DNA of 50,040 bases from a virus (taxonomy: Duplodnaviria; Heunggongvirae; Uroviricota; Caudoviricetes). The notes under the pieces were generated by a model. It was not told the origin of the DNA and ran no database searches. It saw only the letters and a program-made list of their open reading frames with translations. The DNA lies in IMG/VR virus record IMGVR_UViG_2529293039_000013; one strand, given 5' to 3'. Made by a program: the position numbers and the translations under genes. Below are positions 999 to 9,378 of this stretch, piece by piece. The number at the start of each line of letters is the position of its first letter. The first letter of the stretch is position 1.

Positions 999-1574
999 TC
1001 ATAATTCTGTGCTGGTGGCAGGAATTAATTTCTGCCAGATAGCGGAAACATATTTTGCCTGATGACGGGCATCAGCCAGGGCGTTGTGCCGTTCGCCATC
1101 GAAAGGCATGTCCATTTTGGGGTCGAATCCGATGGAACGCCCAAGCGTAACGATCGTGCGTACATCGTGGTCATTCCAGTACGCCCACGGGCAGATTTGT
1201 CCTGCTCGCTCGTAAGCTCCACGTAAAATTACGTTGTCGAAGGTGGCCCCGTTACCCCAGACTTTTAAATATTTCGTATTGTCTGCGTGCCGGTTAATGA
1301 AATGGTTTAGTTCTGAGAGAGCATCGCTGATCGACAAAGTATCATCAATACAGATTGCAGCTCGCGCTTCAGGGCTTTGTTTCAACCACCACAGGATGGT
1401 ATCGCCGTCAGGTGTAGCTCCTTGCTTCATAGCACTGTCTAGGCTGACAACCGCATAGAATTCTTGTCCGATGTCTCCGGTTTCTGGAGTGAAGAACACC
1501 GCGCCAATGGAAACGATCGGTGCATCCTTATTTTTCCCCATCGTCTCAAGGTCGATCATTAAGTTGTTCATCAC
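999..1574 (-). CDS. phage 3'-5' exonuclease (DnaQ-like fold)
   Basis: N-terminal IDLETMG motif typical of DEDD exonucleases; ORF from track. Confidence 0.65.
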   Translation of the reverse strand: MMNNLMIDLETMGKNKDAPIVSIGAVFFTPETGDIGQEFYAVVSLDSAMKQGATPDGDTILWWLKQSPEARAAICIDDTLSISDALSELNHFINRHADNTKYLKVWGNGATFDNVILRGAYERAGQICPWAYWNDHDVRTIVTLGRSIGFDPKMDMPFDGERHNALADARHQAKYVSAIWQKLIPATSTEL

Positions 1575-2215
1575 TTCACCTCCTGCGGCGGTTCCGGTAG
1601 CGGCATCCAGTGAGTTGCTTGCTCAATACCATTACCCGGCTTAATCGTTGCATCTCCGCGCCGAAAGGTGCTTCCGGTATAGCGTGCGGAGCATATTAGC
1701 GGTTCAACCAGAGAGCTATCGAAATTCACCGAAATAAGCACGTTCTGGCCCTTTTCAGGCATTCGATCACTACAGCTTATCCAACCATCCGGAGTTACCG
1801 GAGAGTTGCCGGGTTCTTTAATGTGCAAGCGAGGCTCACCATCTTTTGGTTCAGGCCACTGGCGCTTCATGTTGATCTTCAATTTATCTTCCATAGCAGC
1901 GGTAATTTCAGCATCGCTGATGCCAGCACGGCGCTGTGCATCCCACAACAGAAACTGCATATCAGCCCACTCGCCAAGATCGTCTGGTTCGGCTGCGGCT
2001 TCCAGTGCCTCTTTTGAGAGATGTTTCAGCGGACCAATGGGGCCAACGCAGCCAAATGTGGAGTCAGACCATTTGGCATGCTCGTGGCGAATCTGTTCGC
2101 GTTCCAGTGATGCCAGTGCAATTCGTGCCAGTTCCATTTGTTCGCCACGAGTAAGTCCGTTATCAAGCGGATTTTTAATGAATAATTTGATACGTTCTTT
2201 GGTTATAGCGCTCAT
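1571..2215 (-). CDS. MazG-like nucleotide pyrophosphohydrolase domain protein with C-terminal DUF551-like region
   Basis: overlapping stop/start with neighbour; family recalled from prophage early regions. Confidence 0.5.
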   Translation of the reverse strand: MSAITKERIKLFIKNPLDNGLTRGEQMELARIALASLEREQIRHEHAKWSDSTFGCVGPIGPLKHLSKEALEAAAEPDDLGEWADMQFLLWDAQRRAGISDAEITAAMEDKLKINMKRQWPEPKDGEPRLHIKEPGNSPVTPDGWISCSDRMPEKGQNVLISVNFDSSLVEPLICSARYTGSTFRRGDATIKPGNGIEQATHWMPLPEPPQEVK

Positions 2216-6662: not shown

Positions 6663-7316
6663 TCAAAAATCCATTATTACTTGTTTGACAAGACCAACTA
6701 TTCTGCAGTTCTCACCGCATTCAATAGTTTTATAGTTAGGATTTAGTGGGACGAGATACCTGTTCGGCCAGTCCTCAACAAATTTTTTGAGTGTCGCTTC
6801 TTGCCCACCATTGATATGGGCAACAACGATTTTTCCGTTAATACACTCTGTATCAATAATATCTGGCTCTACGATAACGATAGAACCTTCTGGTATCGAT
6901 GGTGAGCCGAGGGGATTGGTCATTGAATCACCACGGACCCGTAGTGCAAATGCCATTTCTGATACAAGGGCGGTAGTATAAACCCACTCTTCAGCATCTT
7001 CTTTCCTGACACCAGGCTCCGTCATTGTCCATGAACCCGCCTGAACCCACGAGATTAGGGGGACTTTTTTAACTGCGAATATTTCAGGTTTTAGATTTAT
7101 CTTTGGTTCAGGCGAGCCTTTTCCGCTAACAAGCCACAGAGGATCGCATTTAAGTGCGTTGGCTAGGGCTTGAAGGTTGGCTCCATTTGGTTGGTAGTCG
7201 TCCTTTTCCCATCCAGTAACCGTGACACGGTTCACACCAGTCAAATCAGCCAGTGCTTGTTGTGTCAGGTTCAGTTCTTTTCGCCTTTGGCGAATACGAT
7301 CACTCATGTTCATCAT
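6663..7316 (-). CDS. cI: CI-type phage repressor (HTH domain plus S24 LexA-like peptidase domain)
   Basis: N-terminal HTH (LTQQALADLTGVNRVTVTGWE), C-terminal Ser/Lys autocleavage domain (GDSM...K). Confidence 0.85.
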   Translation of the reverse strand: MMNMSDRIRQRRKELNLTQQALADLTGVNRVTVTGWEKDDYQPNGANLQALANALKCDPLWLVSGKGSPEPKINLKPEIFAVKKVPLISWVQAGSWTMTEPGVRKEDAEEWVYTTALVSEMAFALRVRGDSMTNPLGSPSIPEGSIVIVEPDIIDTECINGKIVVAHINGGQEATLKKFVEDWPNRYLVPLNPNYKTIECGENCRIVGLVKQVIMDF

Positions 7317-7323
7317 GTAGGCA

Positions 7324-7385
7324 ATCCTACCACATGCCCATGTAGGATTCTTGACATTGGCATGTTGGATATCCTACATTTCTGC
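7324..7385 (+). promoter_or_regulatory. OR/PR-like region: rightward promoter overlapping operators
   Basis: TTGACA, 17-nt spacer, CTACAT on plus strand; operator atgttggatatcctacat; split palindrome atcctac...gtaggat. Confidence 0.55.
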
Positions 7386-7636: not shown

Positions 7637-8221
7637 GTGGGTAAAGAACCTGAATGGAAAGTTGATAAACAACCAGCATGGCTGGTGGCAGCAATACGAA
7701 GAACGATTGCTGATTTACCTCATGGCTATGAGGAAGCAGCAGAAATTCTTGGTTTGTATAAATCTGATGATATCACCCCAGCGAAAGATCAATTGCATAA
7801 CAGACTGCGTAGCGGTGGGGATCAAATTTTTCCACTTGAGTGGGCCATGGTTTTACAGGATGCCAGTGGTACCAGGCATGTAACGGATGCGATAGCGCGT
7901 CGTAGTAATGGGGTGTTTGTGCCGCTGGTGGACATTGATGACATTGACAATGGTGACATTAATCAGCGGCTGATGGAGTCAATAGAATGGATTGGCAAGC
8001 ATTCCCAGTACTTACGCAAGGCAACTGCTGATGGAGTTATTGACCAGGCTGAGCGTGAGCAAATCGAAGAGAACAGCTACCAAGTAATGGCGAAGTGGCA
8101 GGAGCATTTAACACTGTTATTTCGTGTTTTTTGTGCACCGGAAAAGAGTAACGCCCGCGAGTGTGCAGCTCCGGGCGTCGTGGCGTCGATTGCTTCTGGT
8201 TGTGGAGAAACTAACGCATGA
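7637..8221 (+). CDS. putative CII-like regulatory protein (family uncertain)
   Basis: position immediately after cro; GTG start; stop overlaps next gene start (ATGA). Confidence 0.35.
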   Translation: MGKEPEWKVDKQPAWLVAAIRRTIADLPHGYEEAAEILGLYKSDDITPAKDQLHNRLRSGGDQIFPLEWAMVLQDASGTRHVTDAIARRSNGVFVPLVDIDDIDNGDINQRLMESIEWIGKHSQYLRKATADGVIDQAEREQIEENSYQVMAKWQEHLTLLFRVFCAPEKSNARECAAPGVVASIASGCGETNA

Positions 8222-9378
8222 ACAGTTTAACGGCAAATAACCGTTTGTCGCAACAGCTGGTGGTCAGCGTCGCTGAACACCTGTTGTTACGGCATGAATG
8301 CAGATTACCAAATCACCTGGCTGTAAGTAACCACAGAGAACTTTACCTGACTGTGGGGGGCGAGTTGTGCAGGAACTTAACCGCTGGTTTCGTGACGGAA
8401 GAGGGCTTTATGTCCATGTTATTCGTTGGGAGCCAGAAACACAGCGCGTTATCTATCTTCGCAAAGACTACCCGCATGAGTGCTTTAGTCCTTTGTGGAA
8501 ATTCAGGCGTGATTTTGTTGAGTGTGAAGGACCACCAGCATATTGATTCTGCAATTCCGGGACGTTACACTGCTCAGGCACCTTATAAAGCGGGTGCCGG
8601 GATTGGCGTCCTGAAATTGTCAACGGCGATGTATGACGCGCCAGCGTCTTTTTTATCGTCCGCATTTGCTCACATCCAGATTATGGTGGGCTGGGCGGGG
8701 GCACCGAAAGGTGCGCCGGTCTCCGTTGACGCCGGTTACGCCAACCCCGTCCAGTTCACCACCAGTGAAATTGGCGTTTCCGGTGGTGGAAGTTTTTCAC
8801 TGTCAACGGAGGCTGCCATCATGGCTACGATCCCAGCCCTCACTCAACCTGAAATCACCATTGACAACGGCCAGGCCGTTACCACTTCTTTGGCTGTTGC
8901 CAACTTCTTCTCCAAGCGTCACGACGATGTGCTGAAAAAGATCCGCACTCTGGATTGTTCCCCAGAGTTTTGTGCCCGCAATTTTGCGGAGACATCGATT
9001 TCGGTAAATCAACCGAACGGTGGTACACGCAAGCTCCCTTGCTATCAAATCACACGAGACGGTTTTGCGTTTCTTGCTATGGGTTTCACGGGTAAACGTG
9101 CTGCCCGGTTCAAAGAGGCATACATAAATGCCTTTAACCAGATGGAGAAACAGCTTTCAAAGCCCGCTGTACCGAGCGACGTTGCACATAACGCCAGCGT
9201 TCTCTGTTCCTACATTTCATCAATTCATCAGGTCTGGCTGCAGCAGCTTTATCCTATGTTGGCAAAAGCCGAATCTCCGCTGGCTGTTAGCTTATATGAC
9301 TATATTAATGATGCTTCGGCGCTGGCCAGTCTCATAAATTTGTCGCTGAACCCTTCAGAGGTAAGGGGGCGCAAATGA
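8218..9378 (+). CDS. Rha-family phage regulatory protein with about 200-aa N-terminal extension
   Basis: Rha-like motif (TTSLAVANFFSKRHDDVLKKIR) in C-terminal half; internal ATG at 8821 has strong GGAGG RBS. Confidence 0.55.
   Translation: MNSLTANNRLSQQLVVSVAEHLLLRHECRLPNHLAVSNHRELYLTVGGELCRNLTAGFVTEEGFMSMLFVGSQKHSALSIFAKTTRMSALVLCGNSGVILLSVKDHQHIDSAIPGRYTAQAPYKAGAGIGVLKLSTAMYDAPASFLSSAFAHIQIMVGWAGAPKGAPVSVDAGYANPVQFTTSEIGVSGGGSFSLSTEAAIMATIPALTQPEITIDNGQAVTTSLAVANFFSKRHDDVLKKIRTLDCSPEFCARNFAETSISVNQPNGGTRKLPCYQITRDGFAFLAMGFTGKRAARFKEAYINAFNQMEKQLSKPAVPSDVAHNASVLCSYISSIHQVWLQQLYPMLAKAESPLAVSLYDYINDASALASLINLSLNPSEVRGRK

What the first reader, a model, noticed from the sequence alone, without database searches (positions are those of the whole stretch)
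8218..9378. Rha-like regulator with 200-aa unexplained N-terminal extension and internal start signal
The Rha-type region occupies only the C-terminal half. Upstream in the same frame are about 200 codons with no recognisable domain, yet an internal ATG at 8821 has a textbook GGAGG RBS 7 nt upstream, so a 185-aa Rha protein could be made on its own. The extension may be a separate gene fused by stop-codon loss, a genuine second domain, or produced alongside the short form.
Basis: partly seen in the sequence, partly recalled or inferred. Interest (0 to 1): 0.45.

Follow-up and report, generated by a model that had tools for sequence, protein, structure and literature searches.

The report
RNA immunity switch inside Rha gene
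The "unexplained" first 200 codons of this prophage Rha gene are not a protein domain: they read across a small overlapping gene and a P4/P1-type antisense-RNA switch whose target is the ribosome-binding site of the internal start, an arrangement already known from satellite phage P4 (nested eta/kil genes).

Summary
ORF 8218-9378 (386 aa) is open, its Rha domain lies in the C-terminal half, and an in-frame ATG at 8821 follows GGAGG (8808-8812).

The extension can be explained. It overlaps a DUF4222 gene in another frame (8367-8546). It also contains an isrK/seqA-like RNA with an intrinsic terminator (8578-8654) and a C4/CI-type antisense RNA (8679-8766). The C4 loop (8721-8730) is perfectly complementary to 8802-8811, which includes the Shine-Dalgarno sequence of ATG 8821. 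Loop and targets co-vary three ways in at least 15 specificity types. The internal start is therefore a regulated start, not a coincidence.

The long frame shows no amino-acid-level constraint and no confident fold. It is nevertheless kept open:
- No stops occur in 52 relatives.
- All four indels are multiples of 3.
- The ATGA junction with the upstream gene is conserved.
- The frame is open across the RNA cassette in 65 of 73 independently sampled loci.

This matches phage P4 eta/kil, where ribosome transit through the immunity RNAs prevents termination. P4 Eta aligns with this ORF, and Pfam "Ash" is the translation of this RNA cassette.

Verdict: a new member of a known kind, of modest interest. 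Translation and antitermination are inferred, not shown.

The parts
7637..8221 (+). Upstream ymfL/CII-like gene of the early rightward operon. Its TGA stop overlaps the ATG of the long ORF (ATGA).
   Evidence: Pfam Phage_CP76 E 4.8e-7. PGAP names it YmfL in relatives. The ATGA junction is invariant in 52 relatives.
8218..9378 (+). Long 'eta-like' ORF (386 aa). It reads through the DUF4222 overlap, isrK, C4 and the nested start into the Rha domain.
   Evidence: No stops in this frame in 52 relatives, against 6-16 in the other two frames. All four indels in 8218-8820 are multiples of 3. BLASTP to P4 Eta gives E 2e-9 across C4 and the nested start.
8367..8546 (+). DUF4222 gene (59 aa, GTG start) in a different frame, nested out of frame inside the long ORF.
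   Evidence: Pfam DUF4222 E 9.4e-14. PGAP annotates it in relatives. Twenty of 30 variable sites fall on its third codon position. Against ST64B, dN/dS is 0.10 in its own frame and 2.1 in the long frame.
8543..8571 (+). Putative internal promoter (the PLE/PisrK analogue): TTGATT, 17 nt, TACACT, placing the start site near 8578. This is an inference.
   Evidence: Coordinates. Both hexamers are kept in all 13 sequence variants of this stretch among the 52 relatives, apart from TTGACT in one variant. The match is 8 of 12, so the consensus scan did not report it. Gifsy-1 has TTGACA-17-TATATT at the same place.
8578..8654 (+). isrK / P4 seqA-like RNA. It holds target sites a1 (8602-8609) and b1 (8619-8626) and an intrinsic terminator (stem 8635-8648 plus a T-run).
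   Evidence: Rfam RF01394, 62.2 bits against a gathering score of 50. Terminator scan. Site coordinates. The terminator stem differs between relatives, reading as compensatory changes.
8679..8766 (+). C4 / P4 CI-type antisense RNA. Loop b' is at 8721-8730 and single-stranded a' at 8738-8744.
   Evidence: Rfam RF01695, 81.4 bits against a gathering score of 45. In an alifold of 30 homologues, 16 of 27 pairs show compensatory changes. Site coordinates.
8683..8685 (+). Conserved in-frame ATG at the 5' end of C4, positionally equivalent to the start of Gifsy-1 orf45. It would give a possible 231-aa isoform.
   Evidence: Translation of orf45 was shown in Gifsy-1 (PMC4825925).
8770..8812 (+). Downstream target region (P4 seqC analogue): a2 at 8770-8777, b2 at 8802-8811, overlapping the Shine-Dalgarno GGAGG at 8808-8812.
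   Evidence: Exact complementarity to a' and b'. Three-way covariation in 7 b-types and 3 a-types among close relatives and in at least 15 b-types across genera, P4 included. The MFE fold pairs the C4 loop with b2/SD in cis.
8821..9378 (+). Nested gene (the 'kil position'): a 185-aa Rha-family protein. The Rha domain spans about 8881-9150. Its stop overlaps the ATG of the next gene (ATGA at 9375).
   Evidence: Pfam Phage_pRha E 2.3e-28. Variable sites per codon position are 55/42/128, and dN/dS is 0.12-0.27. The start context GAGGCTGCCATCATGGCTAC is shared with P4 kil.

Best explanation
The region is a P4/P1-type RNA immunity cassette embedded in a pair of nested genes, sitting in the early rightward operon of a lambdoid E. 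coli prophage.

Shown:
- An isrK/seqA-like RNA with an intrinsic terminator lies in the extension.
- A C4/CI-type antisense RNA follows it.
- The C4 loops a' and b' are complementary to a1/b1 inside isrK. They are also complementary to a2/b2 just downstream.
- b2 covers the Shine-Dalgarno sequence of ATG 8821.
- The 185-aa Rha gene that starts at 8821 is under purifying selection.
- The ~200 codons upstream are under RNA-level constraint, and over 8367-8546 under DUF4222-frame constraint. They are not under protein-level constraint in the long frame.
- That frame is nevertheless kept stop-free, kept in register, and joined by ATGA to the upstream gene.

Inferred, by homology with P4 eta/kil, P1 c4-icd-ant and Gifsy-1 isrK-orf45-anrP:
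1. In the lysogen, the early promoter PR is repressed and a weak internal promoter near 8543-8571 makes isrK.
2. Read-through of the isrK terminator yields C4 RNA.
3. C4 pairs with a2/b2. This blocks initiation at 8821, or triggers termination, so the Rha-type regulator or antirepressor and the downstream replication genes stay off.
4. When PR fires, ribosomes coupled from ymfL enter the long ORF at 8218 and translate straight through isrK, its terminator and C4.
5. That transit keeps the RNA unfolded, prevents antisense pairing and termination, and delivers an N-terminally extended Rha protein together with downstream gene expression.

On this reading the extension matters because it is translated, not because of the peptide it encodes.
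For: RNA elements:
- Rfam places isrK at 62 bits and C4 at 81 bits, both above gathering.
- The pair occurs together in 28 loci from other genera and in P4 and Gifsy-1.
- C4 stems show compensatory changes in 16 of 27 pairs.

Antisense target:
- b' (8721-8730) is the exact complement of b2 (8802-8811), which includes the SD; a' matches a1 and a2.
- Three-way covariation appears in 7 b-types among close relatives and in at least 15 across genera.
- b2 ends 9-11 nt before the nested ATG in nearly all of the 25 loci.

No protein-level constraint on the extension:
- Variable sites per codon phase are 11/17/16, 14/13/8, 14/15/19 and 12/15/12 in the extension, against 55/42/128 in Rha.
- In the DUF4222 overlap the count is 5/20/5, that is, on the third position of the other frame.
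- dN/dS is given.
- pLDDT is below 50 for residues 1-213 and 70-86 for Rha.
- The parts N-terminal of 'Ash' in 10 diverse long ORFs have no Pfam domain.

The frame is nevertheless selected:
- There are no stops in 52 unique relatives, against 6-16 in the other frames.
- Realised stops are zero where about 11.6 stop-creating alleles were expected; the other two frames match expectation.
- Four of four indels are multiples of 3.
- The ATGA junction is invariant.
- In a sample chosen only by the nested-start motif, 65 of 73 loci have the in-frame ORF open at least 243 nt upstream, against 0 of 73 and 18 of 73 for the other frames.
- In tandem modules each long ORF starts at ATGA on the preceding gene's stop.

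Homology to P4:
- The P4 eta ORF reads through seqA and CI and ends in kil. It has the same ATGA coupling to alpA and the same GGAGGCTGCCATCATGGCTAC start context.
- BLASTP gives E 2e-9.
- PF10554 hits the P4 eta/old-cI ORF.

Literature:
- Eta translation prevents termination and Kil is nested (Forti 1999, as summarised in PMC10111431).
- The Gifsy-1 isrK locus controls translation of the downstream antirepressor-like gene, and orf45 over the C4-like RNA is translated (PMC4825925).
Against: - There is no direct evidence here that either start is used. No ribosome profiling, proteomics or transcript mapping was available.
- The internal promoter matches the consensus at only 8 of 12 positions and was not reported by the scan.
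- About 11% of sampled loci (8 of 73) lack the through-frame. In Gifsy-1 and L093 the nested ATG is out of frame with the upstream ORF. In-frame continuity is therefore not obligatory.
- In P4 the terminator overcome by eta translation is Rho-dependent and lies downstream. Here an intrinsic terminator lies inside the ORF, so the mechanism may differ in detail.
- The stop-avoidance probability treats alleles as independent.
- For region 8218-8366, one comparison (against ST64B) gives dN/dS 0.27 in the long frame, so weak peptide constraint there is not excluded.
- The AlphaFold2 alignment was shallow: 18 sequences, 71-95% identical to the window protein.
Confidence: 0.7

Rival explanations
1. 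Only the 185-aa Rha protein is made. The 8218 start is an annotation artefact, and the upstream frame is open merely because conserved RNA and an overlapping gene happen to lack stops in that frame.
For: The extension shows no codon periodicity or amino-acid constraint. It has a low-confidence fold. Much of the sequence is constrained by the RNAs and by DUF4222. Eight of 73 sampled loci lack the through-frame.
Against: Openness extends through parts that are neither RNA nor DUF4222, and through non-homologous upstream sequences of 300 to 1700 nt in other loci. The other two frames carry 6-16 stops. All indels keep the frame. The ATGA junction with whatever gene lies upstream recurs, including in tandem modules. 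About 11.6 stop-creating alleles were expected and none was realised. Translation of P4 eta has been shown to matter.
Confidence: 0.15
2. A genuine two-domain protein: the 'Ash' region or the whole N-terminal half is a folded functional domain attached to Rha, and the RNA hits are secondary.
For: Pfam has a family (PF10554) matching residues 117-212. Thousands of database proteins carry Ash+Rha at full length. The frame is conserved.
Against: The Ash match coincides exactly with isrK plus C4 plus the nested start. Its conservation follows RNA pairing, through compensatory stem changes and three-way loop/target covariation, not codon position. dN/dS is 0.5-0.9 there, against 0.12-0.27 in Rha. 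pLDDT is 19-36. Residues 50-110 are the off-frame reading of a DUF4222 gene under purifying selection.
Confidence: 0.07
3. A recent fusion: an upstream small ORF (such as Gifsy-1 orf45, or a gene after ymfL) lost its stop and became joined to Rha in this lineage.
For: In Gifsy-1 the ORF over the C4-like RNA ends at an AUGA on the anrP start, so it is separate. L093 has a 1-nt difference that puts the nested ATG out of frame.
Against: The in-frame arrangement is the majority state in E. coli, Salmonella, Edwardsiella, Pantoea, Klebsiella and other genera, and in P4. It is therefore ancient and maintained, not a recent accident.
Confidence: 0.05

Closest known systems
Satellite phage P4 immunity region: nested eta/kil genes over seqA, CI RNA and seqC (Ghisotti 1992; Sabbattini 1995; Forti 1999, as summarised in PMC10111431)
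   Same: The order is the same: upstream gene, ATGA, long ORF, internal promoter position, seqA/isrK with terminator, CI/C4, seqC/b2 on the SD, in-frame nested ATG. The start context GGAGGCTGCCATCATGGCTAC is nearly identical. Protein-level alignment and PF10554 link the two ORFs.
   Different: The cargo after the nested start is a 185-aa Rha-family protein instead of the 65-aa Kil. The upstream gene is ymfL/CII-like rather than alpA. An extra 360 nt, holding an out-of-frame DUF4222 gene, lies between the ORF start and isrK. The host element is a lambdoid prophage with a LexA-type protein repressor, not a satellite. Antitermination by translation was not tested here.
Gifsy-1 isrK-orf45-anrP locus (Hershko-Shalev et al. 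2016, PMC4825925)
   Same: The isrK and C4 (STnc1160) pair sits directly upstream of a phage antirepressor-like gene. The ATG at the 5' end of C4, which starts orf45, is conserved. Translation through the C4 region is coupled to the downstream gene.
   Different: In Gifsy-1 orf45 ends at AUGA on the anrP start, so it is out of frame and forms a separate peptide; here the frame is continuous. AnrP is not homologous to this Rha protein. The Gifsy-1 locus sits after antQ, not in the PR operon. There IsrK acts in trans as an activator, which was not examined here.
Phage P1/P7 immI operon c4-icd-ant (from established knowledge; Rfam RF01695 and RF03163)
   Same: A C4 antisense RNA is processed from the same transcript as its target. 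Sites a1/b1 lie upstream and a2/b2 downstream, with b2 over an RBS, and the system controls an antirepressor.
   Different: To my knowledge P1 has no long ORF reading through c4, and it uses icd as a coupling ORF. The c4-a1b1 model scores below its gathering threshold here (22.5 against 46.7 bits), whereas isrK fits.
Rha family phage regulatory proteins (Pfam PF09669)
   Same: The C-terminal half is a full-length Rha domain under purifying selection.
   Different: Rha proteins as such do not require the RNA cassette. Here the cassette is the 5' control region of the Rha gene.

Membership tests
C4/CI antisense RNA (Rfam RF01695) | Sequence and structure match above the curated threshold | tested here: met
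   81.4 bits against a gathering score of 45, full model 1-87. In 30 homologues, 16 of 27 pairs show compensatory changes.
C4/CI antisense RNA (Rfam RF01695) | Loop sequences complementary to target sites upstream and downstream on the same transcript, with the downstream site over an RBS | tested here: met
   b' 8721-8730 against b2 8802-8811 (10 of 10, includes the SD) and against b1 8619-8626. a' 8738-8744 against a1 and a2. Covariation.
C4/CI antisense RNA (Rfam RF01695) | A stable processed ~80-nt RNA that represses the target in vivo | not testable with these tools
   This needs a Northern blot, RNA-seq and genetics.
isrK / P4 seqA RNA (Rfam RF01394) | Match above the curated threshold, ending in an intrinsic terminator | tested here: met
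   62.2 bits against a gathering score of 50. Terminator stem 8635-8648 followed by TTTTTT.
P4-type nested eta/kil arrangement | A long ORF spans seqA, CI and seqC and continues in frame into the nested gene | tested here: met
   The same holds in P4.
P4-type nested eta/kil arrangement | [quoted passage not shown] | tested here: met
   ATGA at 8218-8221, invariant in 52 relatives. P4 has GCATGATGATG at alpA/eta.
P4-type nested eta/kil arrangement | Sequence homology of the long ORF to P4 Eta | tested here: met
   BLASTP gives 41% identity over 71 aa, E 2e-9. PF10554 hits both ORFs. The similarity is probably carried by the RNA genes.
P4-type nested eta/kil arrangement | A constitutive promoter inside the long ORF, upstream of seqA (PLE) | tested here: inconclusive
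   TTGATT-17-TACACT at 8543-8571 is conserved. It matches only 8 of 12 positions and was not reported by the scan.
P4-type nested eta/kil arrangement | Translation of the long ORF prevents transcription termination, and nonsense mutations are polar | not testable with these tools
   Only indirect support is available: the frame is kept open without amino-acid constraint.
Rha family (Pfam PF09669) | Full-length domain match above the gathering score | tested here: met
   97-99 bits against a cutoff of 29.9, model positions 1-91 of 91.
'Ash' as a protein domain (Pfam PF10554) | HMM match above the gathering score | tested here: met
   76 bits against a cutoff of 26, residues 117-212.
'Ash' as a protein domain (Pfam PF10554) | Evolves and folds as a protein domain (purifying selection on amino acids, confident structure) | tested here: not met
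   No third-position excess. dN/dS 0.5-0.9. pLDDT 19-36. The match coincides with two RNA genes.
DUF4222 (Pfam PF13973), the out-of-frame gene at 8367-8546 | HMM match above the gathering score, and purifying selection in its own frame | tested here: met
   51 bits against a cutoff of 27. Twenty of 30 variable sites fall on its third codon position. dN/dS is 0.10.

The most novel reading that the evidence does not exclude
The ~200-codon extension is maintained purely as a 'ribosome track'. Selection would keep it open and coupled to the upstream gene so that transcripts from the early promoter are translated straight across an intrinsic terminator, two regulatory RNA genes and an out-of-frame DUF4222 gene. 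Those transcripts would then be blind to the RNA immunity, whereas transcripts from the internal promoter would be subject to it. This would give lambdoid prophages a second, RNA-based and rapidly diversifying immunity layer (at least 15 loop/target specificities), gating an antirepressor and the replication genes. It would also make DUF4222 and the long ORF a truly dual-translated overlap.
Probability: 0.45. Interest if true: 0.5.

Novelty: new member of a known kind. Interest (0 to 1): 0.3.

Why it matters
It changes how a very common prophage gene should be read. Similar sequence occurs in 2497 of 5426 complete E. coli genomes. Databases annotate this ORF as a 382-386-aa 'Rha family regulator', 'peptidase' or 'antirepressor'. 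One paper describes an 'Ash domain' with no assigned function (PMC8951638). On the present evidence that 'domain' is a translated riboregulator, and the functional protein module starts at 8821.

The result also places a P4/P1-type antisense-RNA switch in the PR operon of lambdoid (including Stx-converting) prophages, upstream of their replication genes. There it could influence induction and cross-immunity with satellites.

The concept itself is already established for P4 and Gifsy-1. The gain is correct annotation and a testable extension, not a new principle.

Tried and rejected
- PGAP annotates a shorter 891-nt Rha ORF plus a separate DUF4222 gene in two relatives. I first took this as evidence of frame disruption. 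The frame turned out to be intact there too, so the difference lies only in the start chosen by the annotation.
- I considered that Pfam 'Ash' might be the P4 epsilon antirepressor, as one paper states (PMC8628076). This is rejected: P4 epsilon matches PF25738, and PF10554 matches the obsolete P4 'cI protein'/eta ORF that lies over CI RNA.
- I tested whether the Rha cargo is a homologue of Gifsy-1 AnrP. No similarity was found.
- The consensus promoter scan did not report the putative internal promoter. That promoter rests on conservation and position only.
- The full text of Forti et al. 1999 (PMC94026) is not held. Its content is cited through PMC10111431 and from memory.
- The structure prediction used a shallow alignment (18 sequences). 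The low N-terminal confidence is supportive only, and I ran no fold search on it.
- The sub-threshold hits c4-a1b1 (22.5 bits) and STnc70 (18.6 bits, minus strand) were not used.
- Single-pair dN/dS values for region 8218-8366 were too sparse to decide. Only ST64B was informative.
Full report
**1. The observation**

The window holds an ORF at 8218..9378 on the + strand (386 aa). Its ATG overlaps the TGA of the preceding ymfL/CII-like gene, forming ATGA. Pfam finds a complete Phage_pRha domain only at residues 222-311. An in-frame ATG lies at 8821 and GGAGG lies at 8808-8812, eight bases upstream.

The claim that the first ~200 codons have no recognisable feature is not correct:
- PF10554 (Phage_ASH) matches residues 117-212.
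- A different frame holds a DUF4222 ORF at 8367-8546.
- Rfam places two RNA families inside the extension, both above their gathering scores. isrK lies at 8578-8654 (62 bits) and C4 antisense RNA at 8679-8766 (81 bits).

**2. The RNA cassette and the internal start**

The element coordinates come:
- a1 at 8602-8609 and b1 at 8619-8626, both inside isrK
- an intrinsic terminator, stem 8635-8648 plus T6
- within C4, loop b' at 8721-8730 (CTCCGTTGAC) and single-stranded a' at 8738-8744 (ACGCCAA)
- downstream, a2 at 8770-8777 and b2 at 8802-8811 (GTCAACGGAG)

b2 is the exact complement of b' and includes the first four bases of the Shine-Dalgarno sequence.

The complementarity is not peculiar to this window.
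- Among 52 unique close relatives, b1, b' and b2 change together in seven combinations, and a1, a' and a2 in three.
- Across 25 loci from other genera, P4 included, at least 15 different b' loops each have a matching b2. All but three also show the matching b1.
- In nearly all of those 25 loci, b2 ends 9-11 nt before the nested ATG.
- The C4 fold is supported by compensatory changes in 16 of 27 pairs in 30 homologues.
- Folded as one RNA, 8578-8840 is unusually stable (z = -5.0), and the C4 loop pairs with b2/SD in cis.

The internal ribosome-binding site is therefore the regulated target of an antisense RNA, not a coincidence.

**3. Is the extension protein-coding?**

I aligned 52 unique relatives (78-100% identical; phages mEp460, ST64B, Stx phages, E. 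coli prophages, IMG/VR contigs).

Variable sites by codon position of the long frame:

| Segment | Position 1 | Position 2 | Position 3 |
|---|---|---|---|
| Rha part | 55 | 42 | 128 |
| 8218-8366 | 11 | 17 | 16 |
| isrK | 14 | 13 | 8 |
| C4 | 14 | 15 | 19 |
| Post-C4 stretch | 12 | 15 | 12 |
| DUF4222 overlap | 5 | 20 | 5 |

- The Rha part shows the classic coding signature. The extension segments show none.
- In the DUF4222 overlap the variable sites fall on the third codon position of the DUF4222 frame.
- Against ST64B, dN/dS is 0.10 in the DUF4222 frame and 2.1 in the long frame.
- Over isrK to 8820 the long frame gives dN/dS 0.5-0.9, against 0.12-0.27 for Rha.
- An AlphaFold2 model built from a shallow alignment gives pLDDT below 50 for residues 1-213 and 70-86 for the Rha domain.
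- In ten diverse long ORFs from other genera, the parts N-terminal of 'Ash' (up to 281 aa) have no Pfam domain.

The amino-acid sequence of the extension is not what selection preserves.

**4. The frame is nevertheless preserved**

- All 52 relatives have no stops in the long frame between 8218 and 8820, against 6-16 in each other frame. The distance is always 600, 603 or 606 nt, and the ATGA junction is invariant.
- All four indels in this stretch are multiples of three.
- From the observed alleles, about 11.6 stop-creating changes were expected in the long frame and none is realised. The other two frames show 12-13 against about 14 expected.
- In 28 loci from Edwardsiella, Pantoea, Klebsiella, Citrobacter and other genera, isrK and C4 occur together in every one. 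In most of them one frame runs from upstream of isrK into the downstream gene.
- To remove selection bias I sampled IMG/VR only by the nested-start motif GAGGCTGCCATYATGGCTAC. Of 73 unique upstream regions, 65 have the in-frame ORF open for at least 243 nt, which spans C4 and isrK. The figures for the other two frames are 0 of 73 and 18 of 73. Median open lengths are 456 nt against 30 and 90 nt. Thirty-five of 68 first start codons are [A/G]TGA overlaps with the preceding gene.
- In tandem modules each long ORF begins at ATGA on the stop of the preceding Rha gene.

The through-frame is not universal. Eight of 73 loci lack it, and in Gifsy-1 and L093 the nested ATG is out of frame.

**5. What it corresponds to**

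In phage P4 (NC_001609) the minus-strand ORF known as eta has the following features:
- It starts at ATGATGATG, overlapping the alpA (ORF88) stop.
- It reads through an isrK hit (seqA) and a C4 hit (CI RNA).
- It ends with the 65-aa nested Kil, whose start context is caGGAGGCTGCCATCATGGCTAC.

The window ORF aligns with P4 Eta over C4 and the nested start (41% identity over 71 aa, E 2e-9). PF10554 matches the old P4 'cI gene product' ORF, that is, the C-terminal part of eta. It does not match epsilon, which is PF25738.

The literature states the following:
- CI RNA is encoded within eta.
- Kil is a truncated form translated from the internal-promoter transcript.
- Full-length Eta is translated only from the upstream promoter, coupled to alpA.
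- Eta translation prevents termination (Forti 1999, as summarised in PMC10111431).
- isrK and C4 are the Rfam names for seqA and CI, and some lambdoid Salmonella prophages carry them (PMC3632133).
- In Gifsy-1 the same RNA pair precedes an antirepressor-like gene, the ORF over the C4-like RNA is translated, and translation is coupled to the downstream gene (PMC4825925).

I confirmed the RNA pair in the Gifsy-1 genome. AnrP itself is unrelated to this Rha protein.

**6. Proposed mechanism**

Shown here: the RNA elements, their complementarity and covariation, purifying selection on Rha and DUF4222, the lack of peptide constraint on the extension, and conservation of the open frame and of the coupling junction.

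Inferred by homology:
1. In the lysogen, PR (promoter-like site 7351-7380) is repressed by the LexA-type repressor at 6663-7316.
2. A weak internal promoter (TTGATT-17-TACACT, 8543-8571; conserved, but only an 8-of-12 match) makes isrK.
3. Read-through of the isrK terminator makes C4.
4. C4 pairs with a2/b2. This blocks initiation at 8821 or promotes termination, keeping the Rha regulator and the downstream, translationally chained replication genes silent.
5. When PR fires, ribosomes coupled from ymfL translate the long ORF across the terminator and both RNAs. This prevents their folding and the antisense pairing, and so gives immunity-insensitive expression.
6. Up to three isoforms are possible: 386 aa, 231 aa from the conserved ATG at 8683, and 185 aa.

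**7. Rivals**

- Pure annotation artefact (confidence about 0.15). This fits the lack of peptide constraint but not the stop avoidance, the in-frame indels and the recurrent ATGA coupling.
- True second protein domain (about 0.07). This is contradicted by the substitution pattern, the overlap with RNA genes and DUF4222, and the model confidence.
- Recent stop-loss fusion (about 0.05). This is contradicted by the wide phylogenetic spread, P4 included.

**8. Novelty and verdict**

The kind is known from P4 eta/kil with CI RNA, Gifsy-1 isrK and P1 c4. The presence of isrK/C4 in lambdoid prophages and inside 'Bro network' genes has also been noted in print.

What is added here:
- the specific reading of this very common E. 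coli prophage gene
- quantitative evidence that its frame is selected without peptide constraint
- the out-of-frame DUF4222 overlap
- the identification of the Pfam 'Ash domain' with a translated riboregulator

The finding is a new member of a known kind. Interest is about 0.3.

Noticed in passing
L118 (P4 NC_001609) 1389-2085, minus strand: Pfam PF10554 'Ash' matches the obsolete P4 'cI gene product (AA 1-137)' ORF that lies over CI RNA (E 4e-16). P4 epsilon matches PF25738 instead. A published P4-satellite survey (PMC8628076) used PF10554 as its epsilon marker, so it was probably detecting the immunity-RNA region rather than epsilon.
   Followed up: partly
L037 (nested ATGs at 1635 and 2501), L094 (2768 and 3721), also L019, L036, L038-L040, L080, L085; proteins P0001 (598 aa) and P0053 (592 aa): Some prophage contigs carry two or three isrK-C4-Rha modules in tandem. 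In L037 and L094 the second long ORF starts at ATGA on the stop of the previous Rha gene. Two database proteins of about 595 aa, both with Ash and Rha Pfam domains, may span more than one module.
   Followed up: partly
window 8578-8820 compared with its flanks: The isrK-C4-target stretch is the most variable part of the locus among close relatives (50-88% of sites variable, against 8-33% per codon position in the adjacent DUF4222 gene). It falls into discrete loop/target specificity types, as expected for diversifying immunity specificities exchanged as a cassette.
   Followed up: partly
window 9375-9599, 9596-9895, 9892-10887: The genes after Rha are chained by overlapping stop and start codons (ATGA at 9375, GTGA at 9596, and an overlap at 9892). 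The whole early operon from ymfL to the replication gene looks translationally coupled. The 74-aa product of 9375-9599 has no Pfam match.
   Followed up: no
window 10440-10483: A 12-nt unit (TACAGAGATTAC) is repeated 3.7 times inside the replication-protein-like gene 9892-10887, encoding TEITTEITTEIT. It resembles the origin iterons found inside lambdoid O genes.
   Followed up: no
L093 about 2760-2780 (Pseudocitrobacter faecalis): The spacer between SD and nested ATG is one base shorter (GGAGGCTGCCACATG). The nested ATG is therefore out of frame with the through-ORF, which continues for 513 codons and picks up a partial phage-integrase match. This is possibly a decayed or rearranged copy.
   Followed up: no
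L115 3950-4079 and L117 3851-3980: There are strong Rfam EFASI RNA hits (119 bits) about 1.4-2.3 kb downstream of the isrK-C4 cassette in two P4-like loci. L117 also has an sRNA-Xcc1 hit at 1245-1329.
   Followed up: no
(E. coli RefSeq records): PGAP annotates the same open frame inconsistently. In some genomes it calls a 386-aa 'Rha family phage regulatory protein' with no DUF4222 gene. In others it calls a 296-aa version starting inside DUF4222, plus a separate DUF4222 CDS. Other sources name the protein 'peptidase'.
   Followed up: yes
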